DNA from: Wolbachia endosymbiont of Drosophila innubila
Lineage (GTDB): Bacteria > Pseudomonadota > Alphaproteobacteria > Rickettsiales > Anaplasmataceae
Length of the DNA stretch: 32,000 nucleotides
NCBI RefSeq assembly: GCF_021378375.1
Contig: NZ_CP076228.1
Location: 330,001 to 362,000, forward strand
Direction of reading: 5' to 3'
In this document: positions 2,854 through 26,193 of the stretch, one piece after another
Layout: each line of letters opens with the position of its first letter
How positions within the stretch are numbered: position 1 is the first letter of the stretch
Notes under the pieces: model-generated
Seen by the model: only the letters and a program-made list of their open reading frames with translations
The model's database searches: none
What the model was told of the DNA's origin: nothing
Position numbers and translations under genes: made by a program

Positions 2854-5140
2854 GTGCGACCTGAAAGCCTTCGGTCATATTGTTTATAAAAGGAGAGGAA
2901 TTCATTCAGAAAGAAACTGAAAGGATTCTAAAGCTTATTGAGCCAGATGTTTTGCCATCTGAGTCTACGCATCAGTGCGAATTGGGTAACCAGTTGGTGC
3001 TGAGCGACGCGGACAATGAACCTCCTCTTGATAAAGAAGATGCTCAATCGTGAGAGAAAGCATAAACTACAAGCATCATGTGGTTGGAGGGCTAGGCTTA
3101 GTGGTATGGTGAACGTAAGTGAAGCTTCATAAGTATCGTAACGATTAAAGAGCTAAAGATGCTGATAAGCTCCGACCAAAAGGTAATGTGACATTTTTCA
3201 TTTCTGGATGTACGCAAATAATAATTCCACCGGTATAGAGAAGCCACCTAACCCACTATTGTATGACAAAAGGAACAGGATAAGCCTGTATTTTCGCCTA
3301 TATGGCAGGCAACCCGCAAGGAATGCTGATGGATGTGCAGGTAAAGGATAATGGAGAAAGCGAATGCCATTTTGTAACGAAATGGATAGAATTTGTAACA
3401 TTAATTCGCGTGAAAACGAGCAGACTTCCATTTGGTCCTTCATGACAAGAAACTTTGTTAACCACTTAAGGTAGGAAAGCAGATGATTACAAGTACAACT
3501 GTAAGTGCACCTACCAATAACTCCGAAGCATGGAACCAGTTACCCTGGAAGAAATGCCAAAAGTTGTTATGAGGCTACAGAGGCGTATTGTTAAGGCTGT
3601 CCAACAAGGCAGATGGGGTAAGGTGAAAACTTTACAACACCTTCTCACACGCTCTTTTAGCGGCAAAGCTTTGGCGGTTAAGAGAGTAACTGAAAACCAA
3701 GGAAAAACACAGCAGGTGTAGATCGTCAAATATGGTCAACTTGCAACACAAAATTTCAAGGAATAAAGCTATTAAAACAAAGAGGATACAAACCTTCTCC
3801 GCTAAAACGGATATACATCAGTAAGTCTAATGGCAAAAGAAGACCTCTGAATCCCTACGATAAAAGATAGAGCCATGCAAGCATTATACTTGTTTGCTTT
3901 GGAACCGATAGCTGAAACGATCAGTGATCGTCACTCTTATGGTTTTAGACCAAAAGATCCTGCGCAGACGCTACTGTGGCTTGCCACTTGTTACTGGCAA
4001 GCCGTAACCAACTACAATGGATACTCGAAGGTGATATTAAAGGGTGTTTTGATAACATTAACCATGAATGGCTCATGAAGCATATTCCTATGGAGAAGAA
4101 AATTCTTCATAGCTGGTTAAAAGCTGGCTTCCTAGAATCAAAACTCTGTATTCCACAACTGCAGGTACCCCACAAGGTAGTATCATCTCTCCAATACTAG
4201 CAAATCTAGCCCTAAATGGACTTGAAAAATCATTGGAAAGTCAATTTGGTAAACTTGGCAGTAAAAGAAGAAGCAAAATCAGAAGTGGAGTAAATGTAAT
4301 CAGGTACGCAGATGACTTTATCATTTCAGGAATCACACGTGAAGTACTGGAAAATGAAGTAAAACCTCTAGTATCGTCCTTTCTTCAGGAGAGAGGTCTT
4401 ATCCTTTCCGAAGAGAAAACAAAAATTACATCTATTACAACAGGGTTTGACTTTCTTGGTTGTAATGTACGCAGGTATAATAAGAAGTTAATTATAAAAC
4501 CTTCAAAAGAAAGTATTAAGAAACTTCTTAATAAAGCACGTACATTGATAAAGGCAAACATAGCGAACACTCAGGCCGTACTAATCAAGTTGCTCAATTC
4601 CCTATTAAGGGATGGGAAAATTACTACAGCCATGTGTGTGCGAAAAGAGCTTTAACAAAATAGACCATGAAATTATGTGTGCTCTATGGAAATGGGCAAA
4701 GAAAAGACATCCTCGTAAAGGATTACGTTGGATAAAGAATCGTTACTTCAAGGTAATGAAACAACGCCAATGGGTCTTTGCTGCACCCATATGCAAGAAC
4801 AAACCGAAAGAGATAAGGTATTTAAGACTGCTTAGGTTGATTGATATACCTATCAGACGACATGTTAAAATCAGGGCGGATGCAAATCCACTTGACTTAA
4901 AATGGAAAAAGTATTTTGATGAAAGAGTGAAACAAACAAAAATGTTAGCAAGCTCTTTCTCAAGAGAAGGTTCTCTGCTGTTGGTGTCACCATTAAGAAT
5001 GATGTTTTCTGAGGAATCATGAAGGACAAGCCGGTTCGAGAAAAGAAGGACTTAGATAAGGGGCTCAAGCGTAGTGTGGAGAAACCTGCATGCTGCGTTT
5101 CTAAGGGAGGAGTAGTAGCAATACTACTTCCTTACCTAAC
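2854..5140 (+). mobile_element. Group II intron, copy 1 (2,287 bp), ribozyme apparently intact but intron-encoded protein degraded
   Basis: 5' GTGCG and 3' ...CCTTACCTAAC. Canonical 34-nt domain V at 5067-5100 (AAGCGUAGU GUGGA GAAA CCUGC AU GCUGCGUUU). Domain VI hairpin with GCAA loop and a bulged A 7 nt from the 3' end. Collinear with copy 2 (26195-28490) except for 8 deletions and 1 substitution. Confidence 0.9.
3483..5022 (+). pseudogene. Intron-encoded reverse transcriptase/maturase, frameshifted remnant
   Basis: ORF fragments 3530-3721, 3875-4078, 3976-4200, 4233-4655 and 4612-5022 together recapitulate the 515-aa protein of copy 2. They are broken by 1-nt contractions of A/G/T runs and one 2-nt deletion. 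Confidence 0.9.
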
Positions 5141-10139: not shown

Positions 10140-12695
10140 CTAAATGTCATCTAGTTCTGCCAGCAGTTTAGCAACTTCCGGATGATCAGGGCCATAATGT
10201 TTCTCAAAAATAGGCAAGGCCTGTTCAAGCAATTCCTCTTGTTTCTTGTGATCGCCCAAAGCGCCATAGGCAATACCAAGATTTGCCAGTAGTTTGGCAA
10301 CTTGAACATGACCAGAGCCATAATGTTTCTCAAAAATAGGTAAAGCTCGTTCAAACAACTCTTTTGCTTTCTGATGATCGCCAAAAGTGCCATAAACGAT
10401 ACCGAGGGTTGCCAGTAATTTAACAACTTCAAAATGGTCGAGGCCGTAATGTTTCTTTCGAATTGCTAGAGCCTGTTCAAGCAACTCTTTTGCCTTCTGG
10501 GGATTACCTAAAACCCTATAAGAATTACCGAGATTTGCCAGTGTTCTAGCAACTTCAAAATGGTCAGGCCTGTAATGTTTCTTTTTGATTGCTAAAGCCC
10601 GTTCAAGTAACTCCTTTTGTTTTTTATAGTCACCTAAATCCACATGAGAGATACCAAGGTTTGTCAGAGTAATAGCGACTTCAAAATGATCAGAGTTGTA
10701 ATATTTTTCTTTAATTGTTAAGGCCTGTTCAAGCAGCTCCTTTTCTTTCTGAGGATCACCCAAAGCACCATAAGCGATACCAAGGTTTGCTAGTAGTTTA
10801 GCAACTTCAAAATGATCATAGCCATAATATTCCTTAAAGATAGGTAAAGCCCGTTCAAGCAACTCTTTTTCTTCCTGAGGATCACCTAAAGCCCTATAAG
10901 CGGTGCCTAAACTTATTAGTGTTCTAGCAACCTCAGGATGACCAGTGCCATAATGTTTCTCAAAAGTAAGTAAAGCTCGCACAAGTAAAGCCTTTTGTTT
11001 CTGAGGATCACCTAAAGCACCATAAACGTTGCCTAAGTTTGCCAGTGTTCTAGCAACTTCAGAGTGATCGGAACCACAATGTTTCTCTTGAATTGCTAAA
11101 GCTCGTTCAAGCAATTCCTTTTGTTTCTTATAATTGCCTAAATACCCGTAAGCGTTACCTAGGTTTGCCAGCAGTTTAGCAACTTCGAAATGATCAGGGC
11201 TATAATGTGTCTTCAAGATAGGTAAAGCCCGTTCAAGCAACTCTTTTTCTTTCTGAGGATCACCTAAAGCACCATAAGCAATGCCAAGGTTTGCTAATGT
11301 AATAGCAGCTTGAAAATGATCAGAGCCATAATGTTTCTTGATGATAGGTAAAACCCGTTCAAGCGACTTCTTTTGTCTTCTAGGATCTAAATCAAAATAT
11401 CCATCGCCTATCCATATTAACAAATTTACAAGATAATCCTTTTCTATTGTTTGTTTTTCTGAAGGATTTTTTGTTAGCCAATTATCTACATGTGATAAGA
11501 ACGCTTCTAAATGCGGCAATAATTGTCGTTTCTTAGCATAATCTTCTAATTTATCACTGCCGTAAGGAAAGCTTTCTTCCAGTAACTCAAAAGTCTTTTT
11601 CACAACTTTGTCTTTGCCTTGTTTTTCTAACTCTATTCTTGTTACTTGCTGTACTAACCTGTGGATATTGACTGAGCTTTGCTCTTCTCCTGAGTTGATC
11701 ATTGAATATTGTTTAAGTAGTTGGATAGCATCACCTAACTTTTCTTCATTGCGTTCTACCCCTAAAAACATTTTTGCAGGAATGTTGTCAGGAGCAATAT
11801 AGGCAATGATATCCAAGATTTCTTTGGCTTGCTGACCATACTCTGGGTTATCTTTGATTTTATCAATAGTAATTCTCCAGGTTATAAAAGTTGTCTTGGT
11901 GTAGCTATTGTCGCTGTCTTTAGGAAACTTAAAATCAAGTAATTTTTCTGCTTCCTCTTTGTATCTCTTTAAATAATCACTAATTTCAAACTTCAAGCCT
12001 ACATTCTTTAATGCTATATCCCTTTCTTTTATGTATGCAACTGCCTGCTGCAAAGCTAAAGGAAAATGCTGTAATGTTTCTGCCAAATTCTTTATTTCAT
12101 TTTCTTGTGAACCATCTTTTATACCTAATGCTTTTCTAATAAAGTCTATTGATTCTGGTTCAGTAAATGCACCCAATGTTAATGATTTTATATCTCCCCA
12201 TTTCTGATTACGAGAGGTAATCAAAACACTAGGTTTATTATCATCAGATGATAAAAAGTGGGACGGTAAGAATTGACTAATACCAGCATCTTGACCTTCA
12301 CTTCTATATTCTTCTGCATTATCGAAAACAAAGAGACTTTTTCTCTTGGCGAAAAAAGCGTATATGTCTCTTACAATAGATTCAATATCCCTATCTTCTG
12401 TAGGAATGCCTAAAGGATCTCTAGCTAACCTGAGAAAAGACTGCACCATGGTTTCATGGGTTTCAGCTTTTATCCATATAATATTGTTGTCATAATCTTT
12501 ACTGTGTTCTTCAATATATTTTTTGGCCAGCTCAGTCTTACCTATTCCTCCCAACCCACTAATAGAAACCAGTTGCGATATTACTGTGGCTACACCTTGA
12601 CTTTTTTGTATTAATTTGTGTAGTTCTCGTAATTCTTCTGTGCTTCCAGTGAACGATCCTACTGGATTTCTCACCTCAAATCGAAAGCCTCCTAA
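10140..12695 (-). pseudogene. C-terminal fragment (NB-ARC NTPase + 42-aa TPR array) of an IS-disrupted NLR-like STAND gene
   Basis: Walker A GLGGIGKT (12534-12557), LFVFDNAE, VLITSR, HFPLAL (GLPLAL-type) and NIHRLV (MHD-like) motifs, then ~10 TPR_10/12-like repeats. The track ORF start (TTG 12711-12713) and its first 6 codons lie inside the IS terminal repeat. Confidence 0.85.
10143..11366 (-). repeat. Coding tandem repeat, 126-bp period (9 full + 1 truncated 42-aa TPR units)
   Basis: Units of the form LLERALPIFEKHYGxDHxEVAKLLANLGxAYGALGDxQKxKE repeat head to tail to the stop codon. Confidence 0.85.
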
Positions 12696-13610
12696 GAGGT
12701 TGTCCGGAAACAAGTAAATTCAAGCATATTCCCTCTTTAACATAACCCTACTCATAGCTAGGTATATGAAATTCTCAGTGGATGTTGTGAGTAAATCATA
12801 CTCCTTCGATAGCCTTCTATTCCTATTAACCCAAGCAAAAGTCCTTTCTACAACCCATCTTCTTGGCTGTACTTTAAACCCTTGTTCTCTTGTTGGTAGT
12901 AGCTCAGGTGGCGTATCTTTGTGCACCCAAAATCTACATGGAGGCCTTTTAACAATTTCAATATCTATGTCATATTCTTCCTTTATGTGATTCTTTAAAT
13001 TTCTTCCTTGGTATCCCATGTCAGCCCACATTTTTTTAACTTTAGTATATTTTGTTCTCATATTGTTTAATGCTATTTTAATACCATCTCTATCATTTTC
13101 GTTAGCAGCGCCTACGTAACAACCTAGTATAAAACCCTGAGTGTCTGTAATTATATGCCTTTTTCTACCCTTTACTTTTTTACTTCCATCATAGCCTTTG
13201 ATCCCCCCTTTTCTGTAGTCTTTACAGATTGACTATCTACTATACAGGCACTCGGCTGCTCATTCTTTCCTATTTTTCTTCTACTATATTTTGTAATTTC
13301 ATAATTCATTTTCTCAAAATTCCCTGCTTCTTCCATTGCCTGAACTGCTCATACACAGTCTTCCATAGCGGAAAATCATTTGGTAAATACCGCCATTGAC
13401 ACCCTGTACGCAATACATAGAAAATTGCTTCTAATATTTCTTTTTTGCTATACTTTGGCAGCCTTCCTCCTTTCTTGTATGATACTCTGAAGTGTTTTTC
13501 TATTCTTGCCCATTCCCTTTCGCTTAGATCTGTTGGATACTTTTTTCTCATCTTTACCCCGTACTAAAATTTCAGATATTATAGCCTTTTACTTGTTTCC
13601 GGACAACCTC
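12696..13610 (-). mobile_element. IS5-family insertion sequence (ISWpi1-like), copy 1, 915 bp, inserted inside the STAND gene
   Basis: Terminal inverted repeats GAGGTTGTCCGGAAACAAGTAAA / TTTACTTGTTTCCGGACAACCTC. TAA duplicated at 12693-12695 and 13611-13613. Collinear with copy 2 (18651-19566) apart from 3 indels. Confidence 0.92.
12720..13551 (-). pseudogene. IS5-family DDE transposase (orfA/orfB), orfA truncated by a T-run contraction
   Basis: orfA 13306-13551 ends after 81 aa (..QGILRK*) because GGGAATTTTGAG has T4 where copy 2 has T5 (..QGIFEKMNYEITKY..). The orfB part (12720-13061 and upstream) carries ..WADMGYQG...VERTFAWVNRNRRL. Confidence 0.8.
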
Positions 13611-14534
13611 TAAGATTTCTTCTTTCATCTTGCGAAAGAATTCTCTTCCGTCTTCATGTGTAAGAAAACGTCTCCCTTTTTCTTTCAACCAATCTAGCAT
13701 TTTTTCTTGGAAGCGAGCGTAAACATTCTGTCTATCAATATCATTAAATTGCTCGCCTAGCTCACTTTTGATAATATCCGCTAGTTTTATTTCATTGGGC
13801 TGATTTACTGCAAATACTAACTTATCAAAAAATTCTTTTATATTGTCTTCCAACCTACCTTCATTCATCATTCGTCCAAATTCACGTTGCCACATCTGAT
13901 TTCTTTCCAATTTCCTTTTTGAGTTCTGATCTGGCTTGTTTTGGAGTTTTTTTATCTCCTCTTCTAATTCTTCCATCGCTTCTTCTACAGCACTTTCAAA
14001 TGCTGGTTGCACTACTGAAATTATGTTATTGTGAATATAAGAGAACTTATATCTAGTGCCACCATCTTTAAAAAAGACATCACTAGTGTCGATTACTTCA
14101 ACTAAAATTTCTATTTCCTCGTTTGGTCCTAAAGTTTTTACCCTCAACTTCTTCACTGTGTTTCGTGCTGTGCTTTGATCCAGATCAAAATCGATATTAG
14201 TACAGATAATAAAATCTTTCAGGTTACCATCTGCAAAATCTTGATTATTTTTGATCTTTAGGTAAGAAACAAAATACTTTGCTAATCCAAACTCACCACT
14301 TTTATCTTTTGTAAGTAAGTTCCCTACTCCAATTTTCTTGTTATCTTCATCTTGTGTGTGTTTAGCCTGCAAAAAACGGTATACTTTCTTACTACCTTGG
14401 GTACATTCAAATACTAAATCATCGAATTTTCTGGCCTCTTCTATTTCTGTACCTAAGCGAAAAGAGTGCTGATAGAGCACTCCTCGATGCAAAAATAGCA
14501 TCAATACCTTTAGCTGGTAGATATTACCGTGCAT
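13611..14534 (-). pseudogene. N-terminal fragment (308 codons) of the IS-disrupted STAND gene; PD-(D/E)xK-like head plus charged coiled-coil-like linker
   Basis: MHGNIYQLKVLMLFLHRGVLYQHSFRLGTEIEEARKFDDLVFECTQGSKKVYRFLQAKH has D38-D39, E43 and Q56-x-K58 spacing (14361-14447). GAGG lies ~10 nt upstream of the ATG. The last 12 codons of the track ORF (13572-13610) are IS sequence. Confidence 0.8.
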
Positions 14535-17452: not shown

Positions 17453-18619
17453 TTATACAGTTTGTTTATTTCCATCAACATTACTGCATCTAACCTCACT
17501 TAGCTTACTGTTTAATGAGTGCTCTGATGACTTATACGCAGCCCCATAGGAAATTCCACCAACTATCAGTGCAGATGCTACAGTAATTCCAATTATTGCT
17601 AGTGCAGGTAATGCAGTAGCGTAAACGAGTGCTAATGGAGTAACAATGGCAGCTAATATACCCACAGCAACTCCTGCTGTTATAGCTTTAGATCTATGAA
17701 TAAATGATGGATCTGCACCATCATTTAGTAGAAGTTTTGCTAGCTTTGGGTATCCACGCTGAACAGCGTAGTGTAAAGGAGTTCTTCCTCCTCGATCTTG
17801 TATATTAACATCTGCTCCTTTTTTTAGTAAAACTTCTACTACTTGTGTGTGTCCATGCTTAGCAGCATTATGTAAAGGAGTTCTTCCAACTTTACTTTGC
17901 ACATTAACATCTGCCTCTTTTTCTATAAGATGTTTTACTACCTCTATATAACCATTATTAGCAGCATTATGTAAAGGAGTTCTTCCAACTTTACTTTGCA
18001 CATTAACATCTGCCTCTTTTTCTATAAGATGTTTTACTACCTCTATATAACCATTATTAGCAGCATTATGTAAAGGAGTTCTTCCAACTTTACTTTGCAC
18101 ATTAACATCTGCCCCTTTTTTTATAAGATGTTTTACTACCTCTATATGACCATTATTAGCAGCATCATGTAAAGGAGTTTCCCCATACCTATTTTTCAGA
18201 TCGATATCTGCTTCTTTTTTTGACAAAATTTCTACTATTCGTATGTGTACATGTTTAGCAACAACATGTAAAGGAGCTTCTTTGCAATATCCATTTTTTA
18301 TACCGGTTTTCGCTCCATTGTCTAATAGATTTTCTACTATTTGTATGTGCCCATGTTCAGCAGCAACATATAAAAGAGTCCTTTCATATTCTATAAAGAA
18401 CCCTGTTAATTTTGTATCTTTAGCTATCATACGCAACATGATACCTGGTAAAAACAGGTGATCTATATCAAACTTGTTATCTTTCCACCCGTTGTATACG
18501 CGTGGGTCCTTTTCCTGCAGCTTATCCTTAATTTTATCAATTATATTATCTTTATTGAAGCCTTGATCATTAATTTCTTGTAATATTTCCTTTAGCATTT
18601 CTTCAAATTCTGATCCCAC
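17453..18619 (-). CDS. Ankyrin-repeat protein (about 7-8 ANK repeats) with a C-terminal pair of predicted transmembrane helices
   Basis: Repeats of GRTPLHNAANNGYIEVVKHLIEKEADVNVQSKV type. C-terminus AITAGVAVGILAAIVTPLALVYATALPALAIIGITVASALIVGGISYGAAY. GTG start with AGGAAA 5-6 nt upstream. Confidence 0.9.
   Translation of the reverse strand: MGSEFEEMLKEILQEINDQGFNKDNIIDKIKDKLQEKDPRVYNGWKDNKFDIDHLFLPGIMLRMIAKDTKLTGFFIEYERTLLYVAAEHGHIQIVENLLDNGAKTGIKNGYCKEAPLHVVAKHVHIRIVEILSKKEADIDLKNRYGETPLHDAANNGHIEVVKHLIKKGADVNVQSKVGRTPLHNAANNGYIEVVKHLIEKEADVNVQSKVGRTPLHNAANNGYIEVVKHLIEKEADVNVQSKVGRTPLHNAAKHGHTQVVEVLLKKGADVNIQDRGGRTPLHYAVQRGYPKLAKLLLNDGADPSFIHRSKAITAGVAVGILAAIVTPLALVYATALPALAIIGITVASALIVGGISYGAAYKSSEHSLNSKLSEVRCSNVDGNKQTV
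17862..18158 (-). repeat. 99-bp tandem repeat inside the ankyrin gene (two identical units plus one with 3 differences)
   Basis: 17862-17960 and 17961-18059 are identical base for base by my reading. 18060-18158 differs at 3 positions. Confidence 0.9.
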
Positions 18620-18650: not shown

Positions 18651-19566
18651 GAGGTTGTCCGGAAACAAGTAAAAGGCTATAATATCTGAAATTTTAGTAC
18701 GGGGTAAAGATGAGAAAAAAGTATCCAACAGATCTAAGCGAAAGGGAATGGGCAAGAATAGAAAAACACTTCAGAGTATCATACAAGAAAGGAGGAAGGC
18801 TGCCAAAGTATAGCAAAAAAGAAATATTAGAAGCAATTTTCTATGTATTGCGTACAGGGTGTCAATGGCGGTATTTACCAAATGATTTTCCGCTATGGAA
18901 GACTGTGTATGAGCAGTTCAGGCAATGGAAGAAGCAGGGAATTTTTGAGAAAATGAATTATGAAATTACAAAATATAGTAGAAGAAAAATAGGAAAGAAT
19001 GAGCAGCCGAGTGCCTGTATAGTAGATAGTCAATCTGTAAAGACTACAGAAAAGGGGGGATCAAAGGCTATGATGGAAGTAAAAAAGTAAAGGGTAGAAA
19101 AAGGCATATAATTACAGACACTCAGGGTTTTATACTAGGTTGTTACGTAGGCGCTGCTAACGAAAATGATAGAGATGGTATTAAAATAGCATTAAACAAT
19201 ATGAGAACAAAAAATATACTAAAGTTAAAAAAATGGGCTGACATGGGATACCAAGGAAGAAATTTAAAGAATCACATAAAGGAAGAATATGACATAGATA
19301 TTGAAATTGTTAAAAGGCCTCCATGTAGATTTTGGGTGCACAAAGATACGCCACCTGAGCTACTACCAACAAGAGAACAAGGGTTTAAAGTACAGCCAAG
19401 AAGATGGGTTGTAGAAAGGACTTTTGCTTGGGTTAATAGGAATAGAAGGCTATCGAAGGAGTATGATTTACTCACAACATCCACTGAGAATTTCATATAC
19501 CTAGCTATGAGTAGGGTTATGTTAAAGAGGGAATATGCTTGAATTTACTTGTTTCCGGACAACCTC
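18651..19566 (+). mobile_element. IS5-family insertion sequence (ISWpi1-like), copy 2, 916 bp
   Basis: Same terminal inverted repeats as copy 1. TAA duplicated at 18648-18650 and 19567-19569. Opposite orientation to copy 1. Left end lies 31 bp upstream of the ankyrin gene start. Confidence 0.92.
18710..19542 (+). CDS. IS5-family DDE transposase, orfA-orfB joined by a putative programmed -1 frameshift
   Basis: orfA 18710-19090. Slippery heptamer A AAG GGG at 19051-19057. The -1 frame continues KGGIKGYDGSKKVKGRKRHIITDTQGF...NENDRDG...WADMGYQG to stop 19542. It differs from copy 1 by a +2/-2 indel pair that rewrites ~8 codons (KNILKLKKW vs KYTKVKKMW). Confidence 0.75.
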
Positions 19567-19877: not shown

Positions 19878-20771
19878 TCAATTTTCACACTCATCAGCAG
19901 TTAGGCCACTTGCTCGCAAAATAACATCAGTAGAAACACCCGCCTTCACTAGATTTTTCGCAACCTTGATCTTTTCTGTTTTTTTTACTTTCTCTTTGCT
20001 ATTCTTCATATCCCTAGATAAAAATTTCTTCACTAATTCTTGCTCTTCAGTTTTTCTTAGTAAATTAAGTAGTTCACTATCTTCATTTGTTTTAGGCAGC
20101 AGAACTTTAATATTCACTGATAATCCTTCTGCTATTTGATATAATTTGTCAAATGATATGGCAGTGTATCCTATTTCATACTCGTGTATTTCCTTGAGTG
20201 TTAAACCAACTTTATCCGCCAAATCTTTTTGAGTATATCTTCTTATTAGCCTCCATTCTCTTATTCTTTGCCCTATTCTGTAGTATATAGAATCAGTGCA
20301 GATTTCTCTCTCTTTATTATCATACTCGTAAATAGATAAGCCCGTTGCTTGGGAAATTATGTCAACTGAAACTCCTTCTTTAACTAGATTTTTTGCTACC
20401 TCTAATCTTGCCTCTTCTTGATTAATTTTCTCGCTAATATGAACAAACCTGACTAATGAAGGTACTATTTTGCCTAACTTTTGATTCTCGTATATTTTTG
20501 TTAAATAGAATATTTCTTCGTCTTCATCTTTATACTCTCTTACTACTACTGATTCAGGTAGTAGATCTGTAACACTAACCGATAGTTCTTTTGCTATTGT
20601 ATATAATACTTCAATTGGAATAGAAATATACCCATTTTCATAGCTGTTTACTTCTTTGTATGTTAAACCTATTTGGCTTGCTAATCCTATTTGAGTATGC
20701 CCTCGCATTAACCTACAATTTTCTATTTTTTGCCCTATTCCATAACTAACATTGCTTGCAGAAACAAACAT
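19878..20771 (-). CDS. Transcriptional regulator with two XRE/Cro-type HTH domains (internally duplicated)
   Basis: Two ~150-aa halves. Each has an HTH_XRE core (..RGHTQIGLASQIGLTYKEVNSYENG.. / ..RRYTQKDLADKVGLTLKEIHEYEIG..) followed by a ..VAKNLVK(E/A)GVS.D.I..A(T/S)GL.. module. Confidence 0.85.
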   Translation of the reverse strand: MFVSASNVSYGIGQKIENCRLMRGHTQIGLASQIGLTYKEVNSYENGYISIPIEVLYTIAKELSVSVTDLLPESVVVREYKDEDEEIFYLTKIYENQKLGKIVPSLVRFVHISEKINQEEARLEVAKNLVKEGVSVDIISQATGLSIYEYDNKEREICTDSIYYRIGQRIREWRLIRRYTQKDLADKVGLTLKEIHEYEIGYTAISFDKLYQIAEGLSVNIKVLLPKTNEDSELLNLLRKTEEQELVKKFLSRDMKNSKEKVKKTEKIKVAKNLVKAGVSTDVILRASGLTADECEN

Positions 20772-20820
20772 ATATCCTCCATTTAAGAAAAAAACTTTAT
20801 TGCTATAATTTTTTCACGAG

Positions 20821-21747
20821 CTACCCATCCAAAACTATATCAACAGGTAAACCTACTGCTTGCAAAATAATATCAATAGAAATTCCCCCTTTTACTAGAT
20901 CCTTTGCAACTTTAATCCTTTCTATCTCTCTCACTTTCTCCTCACAAATACGTATTCCCTCAAACAGAGATTTTATTAGTGCATTACGTAGTTCTTGGCT
21001 CTCAATTTCTTTGTATTCTTTAATTAAATCAGGTAGCTCATTTTCCACTCTACTACCTTCATCTTCCTCTGTTAGTAGATCTGTAATACTAATCGATAAT
21101 GCTTCTGCTATCTCATATAATTTTCCCAGTGGAGTAGCTACGCGTCCTTGTTCATAGTTGCTTATTTCGTCACGTGTTGTATTCATTTTCTCTGCTAAAT
21201 CCTTTTGAGTATACTCTCTCACTAGCCTCCATTCTTTTATCTTTTTTCCTATTTGGCAGTATATAGAACCAACTTTTTCTTCAATACATTCATCAGCAGG
21301 CAGACCAATTGTTTTTGCAACAATATCAACAGAAACTCCTGCTTTAACCAAACCCTTTGCAATTTTTATTTTTTCTGATTTTTTACTACTTTTTTCACTA
21401 ACTTTGACAAATTTAGTTAATAAACAAAACATCCTACGTAACTCCTGATCATTAATCTTTTTATATTCTCTTACTAGATTTAATATTTCTCCTTCCTCAT
21501 TTTTAAAGCCGATTTTCTCCTTTGATGCAGTAATGAGATCGGTAATACTTACTGACAATGCACCTGCTATAGCGTACAACCTTTTGATTGAAATTCTACG
21601 ATTCCCTTTCTCATATTGCAGTATTACCCAGTATTTTACACCAATTTTCTCAGCTAAATCTTTCTGAGTATACCCCCTCTCTAACCTCCAACTTTTCACT
21701 TTTTCCCCTACTTCATAGTCTAGAATTTTTTCCACGCAAAGAACCAT
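20821..21747 (-). CDS. Transcriptional regulator with two XRE/Cro-type HTH domains (paralog of 24005-24943)
   Basis: RGYTQKDLAEKIGVKYWVILQYEKG and REYTQKDLAEKMNTTRDEISNYEQG cores. Each is followed by an EYK.I..QELR segment and IK(I/V)AK.LVK.G(V/I)S(V/I)DI. Confidence 0.85.
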   Translation of the reverse strand: MVLCVEKILDYEVGEKVKSWRLERGYTQKDLAEKIGVKYWVILQYEKGNRRISIKRLYAIAGALSVSITDLITASKEKIGFKNEEGEILNLVREYKKINDQELRRMFCLLTKFVKVSEKSSKKSEKIKIAKGLVKAGVSVDIVAKTIGLPADECIEEKVGSIYCQIGKKIKEWRLVREYTQKDLAEKMNTTRDEISNYEQGRVATPLGKLYEIAEALSISITDLLTEEDEGSRVENELPDLIKEYKEIESQELRNALIKSLFEGIRICEEKVREIERIKVAKDLVKGGISIDIILQAVGLPVDIVLDG

Positions 21748-21822
21748 ACATATAATATTTTCTACTATAGCTCAAAGGCTCCAGATATAATAGCCAGACT
21801 CTGGAACCTTTAAATTGATGAA

Positions 21823-23061
21823 TTAAAGTGCCCTACAAGTTTCTTTACTATTTTCACGTACTTTGTCTGCCCATGAAAACAATTTTTCACTTACTTCCTT
21901 CTGCTTTTCACTCCATATGCCGCACCTAGTGAAATTACCTCTCTCTACTGCTTCTTTAAGTTTTACTCCTCCAAAGAGACAGTTTTTTCCTATTTCTTCT
22001 CCTATTTTTTGTAATTCAGCCCACATTTCCTTGTTTTCTACTCTCAATTGTACTTGATCATATTTTTTTACATCGTGGTACAATATAATATTTAGCTTAC
22101 CAATGCTTGTAGGAAATTCTAATATAATAGAGCTTTCATCTGACATATCGATATAGTTTCTTATACCTTCCTTCTCACTTTTAACCTCAACTGCATCATT
22201 GCCAATTTTTAAAATATTACTTCCTAATTCTCTCAGTATTTTGGCTACCTCTACCTTGCTATCATCAGAAAATTCTATATACGATGTTGTATTATCTATC
22301 TCAACATCTATTAATTCTCCTTCTTGCACAGCACTTTCACCAGCCTTCTCTAGTTCTTCTAGTCTCTTATCTATCTGTGGCTGAACTTCTGGCTGTAGCT
22401 CATTATAGATTTCACCTATTAGTTTATTCTGCAATAAAGTATCATGAAAATCTGCACCACTTAGCATTAATTTACGCATTATCTTTTTTCGATCAGTCTT
22501 ATCAAATTTATGAAAATGTGTACCCAATACTACATACTCTGCAATGCTCCATTCCCCATCGTTATATGCATTTATTCTTGCTCCAGAGGCTAGTACTTGG
22601 TCTATAGTTTTGTGCAATTCATTTATGTTCTTTGCCTCTACCACAGCACTCTTAAACCAGCTCAACTTTTCACTTTCGCTTGCACTTGGCTTTATTTTTT
22701 GCAAAGATGAAGCAAATGGGTTTAACATTTCCGGATAATCTGCTTGATCGCTCACAGGTTTTGTGCCATATATGTAATCAAGTCCTTTTCCGTAGTTGAT
22801 TTTGTTTTCGCGAACGTTTTTGCTAGGAAAAGGCACCTCTCCAAGCTTTTTAGCCTTATTAATTTTGCTTACAAAGCTATTACAACTAAGACCACTTAAT
22901 ATTCCCGACTTATCGCTTGTAGAAGTGAGTTGCTGGCTAGTACGACCAATTCCTACAATAGCATTTAACATCTCACCTTTTGATAATTTATCAAGATCAA
23001 CGTTTAACTCATAGATGCCTCCTTCCTTATCACCAAAAGGTACAATTATTTTATTAACCAT
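21823..23061 (-). CDS. Hypothetical protein, 412 aa, acidic, no family recognised; central degenerate ankyrin-like stretch
   Basis: Long uninterrupted ORF co-directional with its neighbours. Residues ~150-215 (IDQVLASGARINAYNDGEWSIAEYVV...MRKLMLSGADFHDTL) look like two weak ANK repeats. No TM segment or signal peptide seen. Confidence 0.6.
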   Translation of the reverse strand: MVNKIIVPFGDKEGGIYELNVDLDKLSKGEMLNAIVGIGRTSQQLTSTSDKSGILSGLSCNSFVSKINKAKKLGEVPFPSKNVRENKINYGKGLDYIYGTKPVSDQADYPEMLNPFASSLQKIKPSASESEKLSWFKSAVVEAKNINELHKTIDQVLASGARINAYNDGEWSIAEYVVLGTHFHKFDKTDRKKIMRKLMLSGADFHDTLLQNKLIGEIYNELQPEVQPQIDKRLEELEKAGESAVQEGELIDVEIDNTTSYIEFSDDSKVEVAKILRELGSNILKIGNDAVEVKSEKEGIRNYIDMSDESSIILEFPTSIGKLNIILYHDVKKYDQVQLRVENKEMWAELQKIGEEIGKNCLFGGVKLKEAVERGNFTRCGIWSEKQKEVSEKLFSWADKVRENSKETCRAL

Positions 23062-23177
23062 ATTAGCCTCCGCTATTAAATATACTTTCTAAGTGTATAA
23101 CGAACTTTATTACTCAGTTGTTATACACTATATTACTTATTATAAATTATAGTGAGTAGATTTGCAAATATTTTCTG

Positions 23178-23834
23178 CTATAACAATCCACTTTCCTTAA
23201 AACTAAAATAGCCCCCACTTGTGATGATAATGTGGTCAAACAATTTAACGCTTACAGTACTACACGCTGCTGCTAGGCTCTTTGTTACTGCTTGATCTTC
23301 TTCTGACGGCTCTAAACTTCCTCCAGGGTGGTTGTGTGACATTATTATTAATGTTGCATTTTTTATTAATGCTTTTCTTATAATCTCCTTTATGTACACC
23401 GGTGCTTTTTCCATTTCACCAATATAGGATTCTTCTCCAACTAATTGGCGCCTTTTATTCAAGTACAGTATTTTTACACATTCCCTTTCTGAGTGGCCTA
23501 TACTTACGTTCAAGTACTCTACTAGCCCTTGTAAGTCCATTATTGGCTCTCCCTTGAGCTTTTCTCTCAGCACCCTTTCTAGTGTTTCCTTAACACACAT
23601 AATCATTGCTACTGCAGAATCAGTTACTCCTTCTATAACTTTCAGATCATCCATTTCTCTACCTAAAATCCTTCCTACTCCTGCATAAGTATGCACCAGA
23701 TTTTTAGCAATTTCTTGAGCTTGTGGCCTTTCATGTACTGCACTTAGAAATGTTTCCATTATTTCACGATCAAGTAGAGCTTTGCCTTTGCTTTCTAATA
23801 TTCTGAATTCTATTTCTTCTTTACTTTTATTCAT
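23178..23834 (-). CDS. radC: RadC-like JAB/MPN-domain protein (DUF2466 family)
   Basis: 218 aa with an N-terminal HhH-like region and a C-terminal JAMM-type motif ...E(x)n...MSHNHPGGSLEPSEEDQAVT. Confidence 0.9.
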   Translation of the reverse strand: MNKSKEEIEFRILESKGKALLDREIMETFLSAVHERPQAQEIAKNLVHTYAGVGRILGREMDDLKVIEGVTDSAVAMIMCVKETLERVLREKLKGEPIMDLQGLVEYLNVSIGHSERECVKILYLNKRRQLVGEESYIGEMEKAPVYIKEIIRKALIKNATLIIMSHNHPGGSLEPSEEDQAVTKSLAAACSTVSVKLFDHIIITSGGYFSFKESGLL

Positions 23835-24004
23835 ATAATTTACCCTTCACTAACAACAAACTTTTTTTAGATATTTACTGCTGTTTTCTTATCAGCATTG
23901 GCATAAAGCCATAGCTTTTGCGTGAAGTCAAATCAATTTTTAAATCTTTTTTACTTATTTTTTTATCAAAAAGTAAAGATATTAATATATAATGATTTTT
24001 TATT

Positions 24005-24943
24005 TTAAACTTGTTGAATTTCGTCCAAAGAGAGGCCTGTTATTTGCAAAATAATATCGGTAGAAATTCCTTTTTTAACTAAATCTTTTGCAATTTTCAT
24101 CTTTTCTGCTCTTTTCACTTTCTCTTCGTAAATTTGTATGCCTTCAAGCAGAGATTTTATTAGCACATACCGTAATTCTTGACTCTCAATTTCTTTGTAT
24201 TCTTCAATTAAATTCGGTAATTCATTTTCCACTTTATCATCTGCATCCTCTGTTAGTTCAAGTAGGTCCATGATATTAATCGATAATGTTTCCGCTATTG
24301 CATACAATTTTTCCAGTGGAATAGCCACACGTCCTTGTTCATAGTTGCTTATTTCGTCACGTGTTGTACTCATTTTCTCTGCTAAATCTTTTTGAGTATA
24401 CCCTCTCACTATCCTCCACTCTTTTATCTTCTTTCCTATTTTGCAGTATATAGAACCAACCTTTTCTTCAACACACTCATCAGCAGAGAGACCTATTGTT
24501 TTCGAGACAATATCGATAGAAATTCCTTCTTTAACTAGACCCTTTGCAATTTTTATTCTCTCTGTTTTTTTACTATTTTCTTCACCAACTCGGGCAAATT
24601 TGGTTAATAAGCAAAATACCTTACGTAACTCCTGACCGCTAATCTTTTTATATTCTCTTATTAAATTTAGTATCTCTTCTTCTTTATTTTCAAGATAGAT
24701 TTTCTCATTTGATACAGGAATGAGATCCACAATACTTACTGACAATGCTTCCGCTATAGCGTACAATTTCTCAATCGAAATTTTTCGTGTTCCTTTTTCA
24801 TATTGTAGTACTATTTGATATGTTACGCCGATTTTTCCCGCTAAATCTTTTTGAGTATATCTCTTCGCTAATCTACGATTTCTTACTTCCTGTCCTATTG
24901 CTTTGTAGTCTAAAAAGCTAGAGCAGTTATTCTCTTTTCTCAC
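24005..24943 (-). CDS. Transcriptional regulator with two XRE/Cro-type HTH domains (paralog of 20821-21747)
   Basis: KRYTQKDLAGKIGVTYQIVLQYEKG and RGYTQKDLAEKMSTTRDEISNYEQG cores, with the same two-half architecture. Roughly three quarters identical to the 308-aa paralog by eye. Confidence 0.85.
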   Translation of the reverse strand: MRKENNCSSFLDYKAIGQEVRNRRLAKRYTQKDLAGKIGVTYQIVLQYEKGTRKISIEKLYAIAEALSVSIVDLIPVSNEKIYLENKEEEILNLIREYKKISGQELRKVFCLLTKFARVGEENSKKTERIKIAKGLVKEGISIDIVSKTIGLSADECVEEKVGSIYCKIGKKIKEWRIVRGYTQKDLAEKMSTTRDEISNYEQGRVAIPLEKLYAIAETLSINIMDLLELTEDADDKVENELPNLIEEYKEIESQELRYVLIKSLLEGIQIYEEKVKRAEKMKIAKDLVKKGISTDIILQITGLSLDEIQQV

Positions 24944-25011
24944 ATCTTATACTTCATAATCAGAAGAACTATTACGTATACTTAATTGGGAACCTTTTTG
25001 ACAAACTGAAT

Positions 25012-26193
25012 TCATCTCCTTTCAAACAATTTTTCTATATCACTTAGTTTCATTTCTATGTAAGTTGGTCTTCCATGGTTGCATTGCCCAGCATACGGTG
25101 TTTCTTCCATTCGTCTCAGTAGCTCATTCATTTCCTCTAACTTCATTTTTCTCCCTGCTCGAATCGATCCATGACACGCGACCGTGGCCAGCATTTTGTT
25201 CACCTTATCCTCTATTGGCAACATATCTTCCATTTCTGTTAATCTATCTACTACTTCAATTAGCATCTCTTTTATATCTATTGTTCCCAAGATTGCAGGT
25301 ATTTCTTTCACCCTTACTTTATCTTCTGATTCTATTTCAATACCAAAACCCATTTCAAAAAGCTTATCTTTATACATTTCAACCATCTCCATTCCTGCTT
25401 GGTTTTTAATCTCAACTATTTCAGGAAGAAGAAGCTTTTGCCTTTTTATGCTTGATTTTTGTTTTAAGCACTCATAGATCAACCTCTCATGGGCTGCGTG
25501 CTGGTCTACTATAATTAATTTGCCTTTAGCCTCAGCAATAATGTAAGTATTGTAGACCTGACAGCGTGCATATCCTAGAGGATAATCCTCTATAAAATCA
25601 ATTTGCTCCCTTTCTAGGGCAATAGTCTCCGCTTGTAGTAGGAATCTCTGTGTATCAGTATAGTCAAATGATTCTGACCGTTCTGATAAGCCTTTTTCTC
25701 CTGCATTTGGCAAGTTGAATTCTTTCATTAGCTGATTCTCAAAAGGACTTGGCCTCCTTCCGTAAAATTCTTTTTGACCCTTTACTTCTCTGCTTTTTCC
25801 ATTATTAACACACTCATTATTCCTTTGACTTTCACTAACATCAAAAGGTGAACCACTCAGTTCTTCTCCAATACCTTGACACCTAGATCCATTAATATCA
25901 CTCACTGAAGAGGTACCTATTCTCATTAACAACGCTTTTATTATCCCTCTTCTCACTATTTCATATATTAACCTTTTATTCTGAAATCTTACTTCTGATT
26001 TATTTGGATGCACATTTACATCTACTTGATCGTATGGTATACCTAAGTGCAGCACTGCAAAAGGATACCTCCCACTTGGAATAAAATCTTGATACGCATA
26101 TCGAATTGCACCAATAAGTAGATTATCCTTGATTGGCCTTCCATTAACAAACGTATAGATCTGAGTTGACTTACCGCGGTTGATAGTTGGTTT
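25012..26193 (-). pseudogene. mutL: DNA mismatch repair protein MutL, 5'-truncated (C-terminal ~394 codons only; GHKL ATPase domain missing)
   Basis: The frame is open from 26193: [70 protein letters not shown], then [12 protein letters not shown] (endonuclease motif) and [11 protein letters not shown]. MutL similarity ends one base before the intron 5' end. Confidence 0.9.

What the first reader, a model, noticed from the sequence alone, without database searches (positions are those of the whole stretch)
10140..14534. IS-split NLR-like STAND gene (nuclease-like head + NB-ARC + 42-aa TPR array) reconstructable as one 1,158-codon ORF
Seen in sequence:
- ORFs 13572-14534 and 10140-12713 lie on the same strand on either side of a 915-bp IS (12696-13610) flanked by duplicated TAA.
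- Removing the IS plus one TAA joins ...FFRKMKEEIL to GGFRFEVRNPVG... in frame (308 + 850 codons).
- The last 12 codons of the upstream ORF and the first 6 codons (including the TTG start) of the downstream ORF are IS terminal-repeat sequence.

Domain reading:
- Residues 1-~125 have G-x-x-YQ, then E30/E32/E33, D38-D39, E43 and Q56-A-K58. This is the spacing of a PD-(D/E)xK restriction-endonuclease-fold core, reminiscent of Cap4/DUF4297- or Mrr-type effector heads.
- A charged coiled-coil-like linker follows.
- The NB-ARC module has GLGGIGKT, LFVFDNAE, ITSR, HFPLAL and NIHRLV.
- Nine full and one truncated 42-aa TPRs complete the protein.

Established: effector head + STAND NTPase + repeat sensor is the architecture of bacterial antiviral STAND (Avs)/NLR-like proteins.

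Inference:
- This is a now IS-inactivated immune or cell-death-type sensor sitting between core genes sucB and secA in an obligate intracellular symbiont.
- This particular head/NB-ARC/TPR42 combination may be an uncharacterised Avs-like type.
- The downstream fragment keeps an IS-supplied start, so a headless NB-ARC-TPR protein could still be expressed.
Basis: partly seen in the sequence, partly recalled or inferred. Interest (0 to 1): 0.8.

Follow-up and report, generated by a model that had tools for sequence, protein, structure and literature searches.

The report
IS-split nuclease-NLR pseudogene in Wolbachia
A Wolbachia gene for an NLR-like switch protein (DNA-cutting-type head, NB-ARC ATPase, TPR sensor repeats) has been cut in two by a mobile element. 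It is a recognisable variant of bacterial immune-type sensors, belongs to a large family shared by insect endosymbionts and insects, and is dead in this genome.

Summary
A 915-bp ISWpi1-type IS5 element (12696-13610, perfect 23-bp inverted ends, duplicated TAA) splits one minus-strand gene. Deleting the IS and one TAA gives a 1,158-codon ORF. Its junction sequence, KMKEEILGGFRFEVRNPVGSFTG, also occurs in uninterrupted orthologs, one of them at the same secA-sucB locus in another Wolbachia.

The C-terminal 850 residues are NB-ARC (Pfam 31.7 bits, cut-off 23.5), DUF7779 and 9.8 copies of a 42-aa TPR_10/12 repeat.

The 308-residue head matches no Pfam family. Three lines of evidence make it a divergent Cap4/DUF4297-type PD-(D/E)xK nuclease module followed by a helical domain:
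- residues E30, D38, D39, Q56, K58 and H59 are invariant;
- the predicted core has alpha-beta-beta-beta-alpha-beta order;
- the best Foldseek hits are Cap4 and LmuA, and relatives repeatedly match PADLOC Cap4/LmuA models.

The architecture therefore parallels Avs3. It is not a member of Avs1-5 (no PADLOC Avs match), and the RefSeq-style name given to its ortholog, "FxSxx-COOH system TPR protein", is not backed by gene context.

The head family is large (1,711 clusters). Among the roughly 30 named members, all come from arthropod endosymbionts or insect genomes, and some are fused to ankyrin or OTU domains. Whether the protein guards the bacterium against phage or acts in the host cell remains open.

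Verdict: a real, ordinary pseudogene of a moderately novel NLR variant.

The parts
10140..14534 (-). Whole IS-disrupted NLR-like gene (pseudogene). It is 1,158 codons once 12696-13613 is removed.
   Evidence: Intact orthologs are colinear with the repair.
14037..14534 (-). Residues 1-166: Cap4/DUF4297-like PD-(D/E)xK core. It holds G3..YQ7, E30, D38-D39 (FDDLVF, 14409-14426) and Q56-A-K58-H59 (LQAKH, 14358-14372).
   Evidence: The AF2 model shows helix 2-20, strands 24-27, 40-46 and 49-58, helix 84-95 and strand 103-112. Foldseek's best hits are Cap4 and LmuA. Family members match PADLOC Cap4/LmuA models. The residues are invariant.
13611..14036 (-). Residues 167-308: helical domain conserved together with the nuclease core. 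It includes the LVFAVNQPNE motif (13791-13820). The last codon, TTA = L308, is the target-site copy.
   Evidence: AF2 helices span 171-307 with block pLDDT 88-96. The domain is conserved in the family alignments.
12696..13610 (-). ISWpi1-type IS5-family insertion sequence, 915 bp. Its 23-bp terminal inverted repeats lie at 12696-12718 and 13588-13610. Transposase fragments lie at 13306-13551 (DUF4096) and 12720-13061 (DDE).
   Evidence: ISWpi1 is described as targeting T(T/A)A and having 23-bp TIRs in PMC3004938.
13611..13613 (.). Target-site duplication TAA, copy on the head side.
12693..12695 (.). Target-site duplication TAA, copy on the NB-ARC side.
12078..12578 (-). Residues 347-513: NB-ARC NTPase. 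P-loop GLGGIGKT is at 12534-12557, Walker B LFVFDNAE at 12312-12335 and ITSR at 12210-12221. The GLPL-like HFPLAL (12051-12068) lies just beyond.
   Evidence: Pfam PF00931 scores 31.7 bits against a 23.5 cut-off.
11619..11834 (-). Residues 595-666: DUF7779, the STAND winged-helix/helical region. It contains the MHD-like NIHRLV (11652-11669).
   Evidence: Pfam PF25000 scores 38 bits against a 27 cut-off.
10143..11387 (-). C-terminal TPR_10/TPR_12 array: 126-bp (42-aa) unit in 9.8 copies. The stop codon is at 10140-10142.
   Evidence: TRF. Pfam TPR_10 E 9e-76 and TPR_12 E 8e-78.

Best explanation
This is the pseudogene of a signal-activated STAND (NLR-like) protein. Its parts, in order, are an N-terminal Cap4/DUF4297-type PD-(D/E)xK nuclease module with a helical domain, an NB-ARC ATPase with a winged-helix region (DUF7779), and a sensor made of 9.8 TPR repeats of 42 residues.

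Shown. An ISWpi1 element inserted at a TAA (codon L308) and split the gene into a 320-aa head fragment and an 857-aa NB-ARC-TPR fragment. In this genome the full protein cannot be made. Intact one-ORF orthologs exist, one of them (L004) at the same secA-sucB locus in another Wolbachia.

Inferred mechanism for intact alleles, by analogy with SeAvs3 and other STAND proteins. A ligand binds the TPR array. The NB-ARC domain exchanges nucleotide and oligomerises. The heads are brought together into active nuclease dimers, and DNA is cut as a cell-death or abortive-type output.

The compartment is not settled. My leaning is that the ancestral role is a conflict or immune sensor working inside the bacterium, for example against phage WO. 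A role after delivery into the arthropod host cell is nearly as likely.
For: IS, target duplication and exact in-frame repair.

Intact colinear orthologs with the identical junction: L004 (866 aa), L003 (900 aa) and P0038 (1,117 aa).

NB-ARC above the Pfam cut-off, plus DUF7779 and TPR_10/12. NF040586 above its cut-off. All canonical NB-ARC motifs intact. TPR array.

Head:
- AF2 model with pLDDT 86 and pTM 0.87, with an alpha-beta-beta-beta-alpha-beta core.
- Best Foldseek PDB hits are AbCap4 6wan/6wam (probability 0.98-0.99) and LmuA 9hr5 (0.85), then MspJI and FokI.
- The window head matches PADLOC SAVED_PDDEXK at E 0.0068. Relatives reach E 2.4e-7 and 1.4e-6 on that model and also match LmuA/DUF4297 and CBASS endonuclease models.
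- E30, D38, D39, Q56, K58 and H59 are invariant in 39 divergent members.

Literature: SeAvs3 has a Cap4-like nuclease that is activated when sensor binding drives tetramerisation (PMC11291478).
Against: Against the nuclease reading of the head:
- The head matches no Pfam family. PF14130 does not appear for the window head or among the 25 most-matched of the 46 families reported for 26 relatives.
- It matches no PDB sequence.
- A core-only model (pLDDT 79) gave no significant Foldseek hit. The best E was 0.15, and Cap4 reached probability 0.3-0.6 and TM 0.33-0.35.
- The (D/E)xK position carries Q, so catalysis is assumed rather than shown.

Against an antiviral, Avs-like role:
- No PADLOC Avs or bNACHT model matches.
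- The locus is not a defence island.
- All named family members come from arthropod endosymbionts or insect genomes. Several carry OTU or ankyrin domains typical of host-directed proteins.
- Published work treats Wolbachia NB-ARC proteins as host-manipulation candidates (PMC5062602, PMC6133264).
- Many orthologs and paralogs are broken, so selection for the function is weak or episodic.
Confidence: 0.6

Rival explanations
1. Host-directed effector. Intact family members are exported from the symbiont (type IV secretion or lysis) and act in the arthropod cytoplasm. There the NB-ARC-TPR switch senses a host or viral ligand, and the nuclease damages host or viral DNA. This would make it a cousin of other Wolbachia nuclease toxins rather than an anti-phage system.
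For: The head family occurs in Wolbachia, Ca. Mesenet, an Amoebophilaceae MAG and many insect genomes: Nasonia, Halyomorpha, Planococcus, Brassicogethes, Malaya, Temnothorax and Phymastichus. None of the roughly 30 named members comes from a free-living bacterium.

The head is fused to OTU deubiquitinase and ankyrin repeats in P0021 and P0034, and to ankyrin sensors in P0031, P0035 and P0039. One paralog lies in an IS-rich region with Latrotoxin_C, ankyrin, RadC and HTH genes.

The literature regards Wolbachia NB-ARC and OTU-Apaf-1-like proteins as candidates for manipulating host cell death (PMC5062602; PMC6133264).
Against: The window gene has no OTU, ankyrin or other eukaryote-type domain. 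It sits between housekeeping genes at a locus conserved across divergent Wolbachia. Its parts (Cap4-like nuclease, NB-ARC with FxsT-like TPR_10/12) are typical of bacterial conflict systems. No secretion signal can be tested here. Insect copies may simply be symbiont-to-host gene transfers.
Confidence: 0.3
2. The head is a catalytically dead or non-nuclease adaptor. The protein is then a signalling or scaffolding NB-ARC-TPR regulator, like AfsR/FxsT-type TPR ATPases, with no DNA-cutting output.
For: There is no Pfam or PDB sequence match. All Foldseek E-values are at or above 0.018, and the core-only search is not significant. Q replaces the acidic residue of the (D/E)xK triad. The rest of the protein matches regulators such as FxsT, HaaT and AfsR in NCBIfam.
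Against: E30, D38, D39, Q56, K58 and H59 are strictly invariant across 39 members at 31-68% identity to the window head, which is what a live active site looks like. Q-x-K variants are known in active Mrr-type PD-(D/E)xK enzymes (my own knowledge, not tested here). Independent PADLOC nuclease models (Cap4-type, LmuA, CBASS endonuclease) hit the same 40-140 region in many members.
Confidence: 0.12
3. The gene is not fully dead. The 3' fragment is still translated from the IS-borne TTG at 12713 or the GTG 13 codons downstream, giving a headless NB-ARC-TPR protein with a residual or dominant-negative role.
For: An 857-codon ORF with intact NB-ARC motifs and TPRs persists. The public record calls an 844-aa gene here. 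The transposase ORF ends 6 nt before the TTG, so read-through transcription and re-initiation are conceivable. The same split arrangement is kept in a near-identical genome.
Against: No promoter-like site faces outward from the IS beyond chance: 12 were found against 15 expected, and the only strong one is the IS's own promoter at 13606-13578. The TTG has no Shine-Dalgarno sequence. Persistence of the ORF is expected if the insertion is recent, since the flanks are 99.6-99.9% identical between the two strains. No expression data are available.
Confidence: 0.1
4. It is the TPR component of an FxSxx-COOH peptide-modification system, as the annotation of its intact ortholog says.
For: NCBIfam NF040586 scores 378.7 bits against a 300 cut-off. 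The ortholog XCA33130.1 is named 'FxSxx-COOH system tetratricopeptide repeat protein'.
Against: The best stretch covers only model positions 7-373 of 830, which is the generic NB-ARC part; the rest of the score comes from TPRs. The neighbours are sucB and secA. No radical-SAM, peptidase or precursor-peptide gene was found among the larger ORFs scanned. The FxSxx-COOH peptide system is described for actinobacterial systems (PMC7159879). The model does not cover the 308-aa head.
Confidence: 0.02

Closest known systems
Avs3 (SeAvs3), antiviral STAND / bacterial NLR-like protein
   Same: The order of parts is the same: N-terminal Cap4-like PD-(D/E)xK nuclease, STAND NTPase, C-terminal helical-repeat sensor. 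The likely logic is the same too: sensor binding, then oligomerisation, then nuclease dimers (PMC11291478).
   Different: No PADLOC Avs model matches. The NTPase is of the NB-ARC clade with DUF7779. The sensor is a regular 42-aa TPR_10/12 array. The family is confined to arthropod endosymbionts and insects. No anti-phage activity is known.
Cap4 (CBASS effector), LmuA (Lamassu) and DUF4297-HerA nucleases
   Same: They give the best structural matches to the head. Family members repeatedly match their PADLOC models. The head has a D...QxK-type motif in an alpha-beta-beta-beta-alpha-beta core.
   Different: The Pfam Cap4_nuclease/DUF4297 model is not matched, and identity is about 10%. Here the domain is controlled by a fused NB-ARC-TPR switch rather than by SAVED, SMC or HerA partners.
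FxsT-type NB-ARC-TPR proteins (NCBIfam NF040586) and other bacterial/fungal NB-ARC-TPR NLRs
   Same: NB-ARC plus TPR_10/12 core. The score is above the curated cut-off. Internally similar 42-aa repeats vary in copy number between alleles: about 3, 8.8 and 9.8 copies.
   Different: This protein has an extra 308-aa nuclease-type head. There is no FxSxx-COOH gene context.
Wolbachia NB-ARC / 'Apaf-1-like' ankyrin and OTU proteins of the phage WO eukaryotic association module
   Same: Same genus and same NB-ARC clade. Several of those architectures carry this same head: P0034 is OTU-Ank-head-NB-ARC, and P0035 is head-NB-ARC-Ank. Counterparts in arthropod genomes are noted in PMC6133264.
   Different: The window gene is chromosomal, between sucB and secA, and lacks ankyrin and OTU domains. 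The nuclease-type head was not described in the papers read. gwv_1093 of WOVitA1 is not a relative of the head.
ISWpi1 (IS5 family) of Wolbachia
   Same: 915-916 bp, 23-bp terminal inverted repeats, TAA target duplication, and a DUF4096 + DDE transposase (PMC3004938).
   Different: Both inverted repeats are identical here, whereas the canonical element has one mismatch at position 17. This copy also has an extra 1-bp deletion in a T-run of the transposase.

Membership tests
NB-ARC / STAND NTPase (Pfam PF00931) | HMM score at or above the Pfam gathering cut-off | tested here: met
   31.7 bits against 23.5, residues 347-513. Paralogs score 31-46 bits.
NB-ARC / STAND NTPase (Pfam PF00931) | P-loop, Walker B, sensor-1-type TSR/TTR, GLPL-like and MHD-like motifs in order, followed by a winged-helix region and repeats | tested here: met
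   GLGGIGKT 354-361, LFVFDNAE 428-435, ITSR 466-469, HFPLAL 517-522 and NIHRLV 650-655. DUF7779 595-666 and TPRs. Assigning these strings to the named motifs rests on my own knowledge of NB-ARC.
Avs (antiviral STAND, types 1-5) | Match to an Avs family profile (PADLOC / DefenseFinder type) | tested here: not met
   No Avs or bNACHT model matched at E <= 1; only TPR models and a weak SAVED_PDDEXK match appeared. The intact ortholog P0038 gave the same result.
Avs (antiviral STAND, types 1-5) | Tripartite architecture: effector, STAND ATPase, repeat sensor | tested here: met
Avs (antiviral STAND, types 1-5) | Protection against phage; recognition of a conserved phage protein | not testable with these tools
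The gene is disrupted in this genome.
Cap4_nuclease / DUF4297 (PD-(D/E)xK) | Match to the Pfam family model | tested here: not met
   The window head has no Pfam hit at E <= 10. PF14130 is not among the 25 most-matched of the 46 families reported for 26 relatives at E <= 1.
Cap4_nuclease / DUF4297 (PD-(D/E)xK) | Match to independent Cap4 / LmuA / DUF4297 profiles | tested here: inconclusive
   The window head matches PDLC02007 at E 0.0068. 9 of 26 and 13 of 39 relatives match it (best 2.4e-7). Others match LmuA PDLC03849 (2.4e-5), the DUF4297 models PDLC00242 and PDLC00260, and CBASS endonuclease PDLC00737. The hits are consistent but weak.
Cap4_nuclease / DUF4297 (PD-(D/E)xK) | alpha-beta-beta-beta-alpha-beta core, with Asp at the start of strand 2 and (D/E/Q)xK in strand 3, conserved | tested here: met
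   DSSP on the model gives H2-20, E24-27, E40-46, E49-58, H84-95, E103-112. D38/D39 precede strand 2 and Q56-A-K58 ends strand 3. These residues are invariant in 39 members.
Cap4_nuclease / DUF4297 (PD-(D/E)xK) | Significant structural similarity to solved Cap4, LmuA or Avs3 nuclease domains | tested here: inconclusive
Cap4_nuclease / DUF4297 (PD-(D/E)xK) | Metal-dependent dsDNA cleavage | not testable with these tools
   A biochemical assay is needed.
FxSxx-COOH system TPR protein (NF040586) | HMM score at or above the NCBIfam cut-off | tested here: met
   378.7 bits against 300. The best stretch is residues 321-705 on model positions 7-373 of 830.
FxSxx-COOH system TPR protein (NF040586) | Genomic association with the FxSxx-COOH precursor and its processing/modification enzymes | tested here: not met
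   The neighbours are sucB and secA. The other ORFs scanned in the 32-kb window are hemC, murB, an ankyrin gene, HTH regulators, RadC, MutL, group II intron RT and FtsW.
ISWpi1 / IS5 family | About 916 bp, 23-bp terminal inverted repeats, T(T/A)A target duplication, DDE transposase | tested here: met
   The family description is in PMC3004938.

The most novel reading that the evidence does not exclude
The head-NB-ARC-repeat proteins are a nuclease-armed NLR family exchanged between arthropod endosymbionts and their hosts. Under this reading, Wolbachia either delivers these sensors into host cells, or insects (which otherwise lack classical NLRs) have domesticated symbiont-derived, Avs-like nuclease NLRs as cytosolic immune or cell-death receptors. 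The 1,700-cluster family, with chromosomal copies in Nasonia, Halyomorpha, Planococcus, Brassicogethes and Malaya, would then be a cross-kingdom immune module. The Wolbachia locus here would be one decayed member of it.
Probability: 0.2. Interest if true: 0.8.

Novelty: new variant of a known kind. Interest (0 to 1): 0.45.

Why it matters
Nuclease-STAND-repeat proteins are the bacterial counterparts of animal and plant NLRs, and how they work is now understood for Avs3 and Avs4. This locus shows that Wolbachia carries an NB-ARC-clade version with a Cap4-like head that no Pfam model covers. It also shows that databases name this version misleadingly ("FxSxx-COOH system TPR protein", "hypothetical protein", "ankyrin repeat protein").

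The same head is found in hundreds of endosymbiont and insect proteins, some fused to OTU or ankyrin domains. A clear, testable mechanism (ligand-triggered oligomerisation switching on a DNase) can therefore be proposed for a set of Wolbachia "eukaryote-like" NB-ARC proteins whose function has only been guessed at. It bears on two open questions: whether Wolbachia defends itself against phage WO, and what these proteins do to hosts.

For this particular genome the finding is ordinary. The gene is an IS-inactivated pseudogene, one of many in Wolbachia.

Tried and rejected
1. Link to the 'gwv_1093 N-terminal domain' of phage WOVitA1. That domain is published as shared with mosquitoes, ants, beetles, a mealybug and a bee, a taxon list much like the one I found for the head. 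Rejected: tblastn of the head against 50,697 phage records found nothing. BLASTP against gwv_1093 gave only weak TPR matches. An HMM of the head family scored -34 bits on gwv_1093.

2. PADLOC candidate system PDC-M72A (E 2.4e-34 for some relatives). The hits lie in the ankyrin repeats, not in the head or NB-ARC.

3. Direct sequence links from the head to known structures or families. phmmer and a profile against all PDB chains found nothing relevant. Pfam found nothing for the head alone or for 26 relatives.

5. A second head copy, or an IS-truncated relative, elsewhere in the window (for example upstream of the ankyrin gene next to IS copy 2). None was found.

6. An outward promoter or terminator around the IS. 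Nothing rose above the shuffled expectation.

7. Literature. Searches for Wolbachia with STAND/NLR/nuclease, DUF4297/Cap4/Lamassu, or DefenseFinder found no paper describing this family as a nuclease NLR.

Full report
**1. The observation**

The minus strand carries ORFs 13572-14534 (320 aa) and 10140-12713 (857 aa, TTG start). Between them lies a 915-bp element at 12696-13610. Its ends are perfect inverted repeats, GAGGTTGTCCGGAAACAAGTAAA, and TAA flanks it on both sides.

The element encodes fragments of an IS4/5-type transposase (DUF4096 and DDE_Tnp_1_2). It is 99.5% identical to a second copy at 18651-19566. Size, 23-bp ends and T(T/A)A target fit ISWpi1 of the IS5 family as described by Ling and Cordaux (PMC3004938).

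Removing 12696-13613 gives one 1,158-codon ORF.

**2. The repair matches real genes**

A scan of one genome per species found the same gene next to secA in several other Wolbachia.
- L004 has an uninterrupted 866-aa ORF between secA and sucB.
- L003 has a 900-aa ORF.
- Both run straight through the insertion point with the sequence KMKEEILGGFRF(E/D)VRNP.
- A 1,117-aa protein from another Wolbachia (P0038 = XCA33130.1) is 79% identical from residue 1 to the C-terminus and has one TPR fewer.

The two halves are therefore one gene. The window copy is a pseudogene. Other alleles are also damaged. L001, L002 and L005 change frame. Paralogs P0012 and P0014 are truncated next to transposases. Draft-assembly indel errors cannot be excluded for some of these.

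**3. The C-terminal 850 residues**

Pfam gives NB-ARC (31.7 bits, cut-off 23.5, residues 347-513), DUF7779 (595-666) and very strong TPR_10/TPR_12 matches. The P-loop, Walker B, ITSR, HFPLAL and NIHRLV motifs are all intact.

Tandem Repeats Finder reports a 126-bp unit in 9.8 copies. The nine full repeats are 45-76% identical to each other, and variation is concentrated at a few positions. Copy number differs between alleles: about 3 in L004, 8.8 in P0038 and 9.8 here.

NCBIfam NF040586, 'FxSxx-COOH system TPR protein', is passed (378.7 against 300 bits), and that is the name the intact ortholog carries. The best stretch, however, covers only the NB-ARC part of the model. The neighbours are sucB and secA. 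Nothing resembling that actinobacterial peptide system (PMC7159879) was found among the ORFs scanned in the window. I treat the name as over-annotation.

**4. The head, residues 1-308**

The head matches no Pfam family and no PDB sequence.

An AlphaFold2 model built from 26 homologs is confident (pLDDT 86, pTM 0.87). It has an N-terminal helix, three strands, a helix and a fourth strand (residues 2-112). A small beta region follows, and then a compact helical domain (171-307). That domain is a folded unit, not a simple coiled-coil linker.

Foldseek against the PDB puts A. baumannii Cap4 first (probability 0.98-0.99, E 0.02). The Lamassu LmuA nuclease follows (probability 0.85), then MspJI and FokI. 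All four are PD-(D/E)xK enzymes. The statistics are weak, though. A model of the core alone gave no significant hit, although Cap4, MspJI, AspBHI, LmuA and CinB recur in its list.

Independent sequence evidence points the same way.
- The window head matches the PADLOC Cap4-type 'SAVED_PDDEXK' model at E 0.0068.
- 9 of 26 relatives and 13 of 39 more divergent relatives match that model (best 2.4e-7).
- Others match LmuA/DUF4297 and CBASS endonuclease models, always in the residue 40-140 region.
- Across 39 members that are 31-68% identical to the window head, the invariant residues are F25, E30, D38, D39, Q56, K58, H59, L73 and Y87. D38/D39 sit just before strand 2 and Q56-x-K58 at the end of strand 3. 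That is the PD...(D/E/Q)xK geometry.

I conclude, with about 75-80% confidence, that the head is a divergent Cap4/DUF4297-type nuclease module not covered by current Pfam models. Catalysis has not been shown.

**5. The family**

A full HMMER scan with the head profile found 1,711 clusters at 50% identity, 449 of them below 1e-30.

The architectures sampled are head-NB-ARC-DUF7779 followed by TPR_10/12 or ankyrin repeats. Some have OTU and ankyrin domains in front.

Named members fall into two groups.
- Endosymbionts: Wolbachia, Candidatus Mesenet, an Amoebophilaceae MAG and Rickettsiales MAGs.
- Insect genomes, several on chromosome-scale contigs: Nasonia vitripennis, Trichomalopsis, Halyomorpha halys, Phymastichus coffea, Temnothorax americanus, Brassicogethes aeneus, Planococcus citri, Malaya genurostris and Eufriesea mexicana.

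None of the roughly 30 named members was from a free-living bacterium.

Earlier work noted NB-ARC and 'Apaf-1-like' proteins in Wolbachia and counterparts in arthropods, and proposed host manipulation (PMC5062602; PMC6133264). In the library I could search, no paper describes the nuclease-type head.

**6. How it most likely works**

Shown: the domain order, the intact NTPase motifs, the conserved putative active site, and the IS disruption.

Inferred, by analogy with STAND proteins in general and with SeAvs3 in particular. In SeAvs3, a Cap4-like nuclease is switched on when sensor binding drives tetramerisation (PMC11291478). Here, a ligand bound by the TPR array would trigger NB-ARC oligomerisation. 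That would bring the heads into active dimers that cut DNA.

Not decided: where this happens. A bacterial self-defence role (against phage WO) fits the building blocks. A host-directed role fits the family's distribution and its OTU and ankyrin fusions. I give about 0.35 to the defence role, 0.30 to the host-directed role, and the rest to a non-catalytic or other role.

In this genome the full protein cannot be made. A headless product is possible but unsupported. There is no Shine-Dalgarno sequence before the TTG and no outward promoter above chance. The public record calls an 844-aa gene from an internal GTG.

**7. Comparison and novelty**

The protein works like Avs3 but is not an Avs family member, since no PADLOC Avs profile matches. 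It is an NB-ARC STAND protein: profile, motifs and architecture are all met. It passes the FxsT profile but fails the context test.

It is best described as a new variant of a known kind. It is an NB-ARC-clade, Cap4-like-nuclease NLR typical of arthropod endosymbionts and found in insect genomes, represented here by an IS-killed copy.

**8. Context seen in passing**

- A near-identical complete genome (OZ253934.1; flanks 99.6-99.9% identical) has the IS at the same TAA in the opposite orientation.
- IS copy 2 marks the point where synteny with that genome ends.
- Beyond it lies a phage-WO-like module in the same gene order as gwv_1098-1103 of WOVitA1: MutL, HTH, RadC, hypothetical, HTH, HTH.
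- A group II intron reverse transcriptase follows.

Noticed in passing
window 12696-13610, compared with L010 5925-6840 (OZ253934.1): A near-identical Wolbachia genome (flanks 99.6-99.9% identical) has the same IS at the same TAA in the same gene, but in inverted orientation. Its product P0001 therefore ends ...EVIRKLVNSSIFPL. The window copy has two identical 23-bp inverted repeats, while the L010 copy has two differences in one repeat. This fits either the TIR-TIR recombination inversions described for ISWpi1 (PMC3004938) or excision and re-insertion at a hot-spot TAA.
   Followed up: partly
window 18651-19566: A second ISWpi1 copy (916 bp, TAA on both sides) sits upstream of the ankyrin gene. 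Homology with the near-identical genome OZ253934.1 stops exactly at this IS. That genome has a transaldolase gene beyond it; the window has a phage-WO-like module. The IS therefore marks a rearrangement breakpoint.
   Followed up: partly
window 19878-26055 (minus strand): This is a phage-WO-like module in the same order as gwv_1098-gwv_1103 of WOVitA1. It runs MutL (C-terminal part only, 25012-26055), a double-HTH_3 protein (24005-24943), RadC (23178-23834), a 412-aa protein with no Pfam match (21823-23061), then two more double-HTH_3 proteins (20821-21747 and 19878-20771). The double-HTH_3 proteins have the domain make-up reported for Wmk-type regulators (my own knowledge). The module lies only about 5 kb from the NLR-like gene, beyond secA and an ankyrin gene.
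   Followed up: partly
window 26824-28371 and 4233-4655: 26824-28371 is a group II intron reverse transcriptase/maturase ORF (RVT_N, RVT_1, GIIM). It lies just upstream of the truncated mutL-like gene and may have interrupted it. A separate short reverse-transcriptase fragment lies at 4233-4655.
   Followed up: no
window 12696-13610 and 18651-19566: The two IS copies differ only by indels in homopolymer runs, with no substitutions. Copy 1 lacks a T in a T-run at IS position 291, which puts its transposase in three frames. Copy 2 has +AA and -TG changes around position 557-582. These are either decaying transposase genes or homopolymer errors of the assembly. If they are errors, frameshift calls elsewhere in this record need caution.
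   Followed up: partly
window 17453-18619 (minus strand): A 388-aa ankyrin-repeat gene lies directly after secA. Against the near-identical genome it aligns at only 98% identity, with alternative shifted alignments. That suggests differences in ankyrin repeat number or sequence between the two strains.
   Followed up: no
L012 10001-12588 (CP099592.1) and L014 10001-11926 (OZ181655.1): Paralogs of the gene (about 40% identity) are also broken. One is split into 409 + 442 aa in an IS-dense region with Latrotoxin_C, ankyrin, RadC and HTH genes. The other is truncated at 474 aa next to gatB, with IS (rve) copies nearby. Recurrent decay of this family in Wolbachia looks like the rule.
   Followed up: partly
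P0038 (XCA33130.1), ortholog of window 10140-14534: The intact ortholog is named 'FxSxx-COOH system tetratricopeptide repeat protein' in its source record. The likely reason is that the generic NB-ARC-TPR part passes NF040586. There is no supporting gene context, and the 308-aa head is unannotated, so this is likely a systematic mis-naming of the family in Wolbachia genomes.
   Followed up: partly
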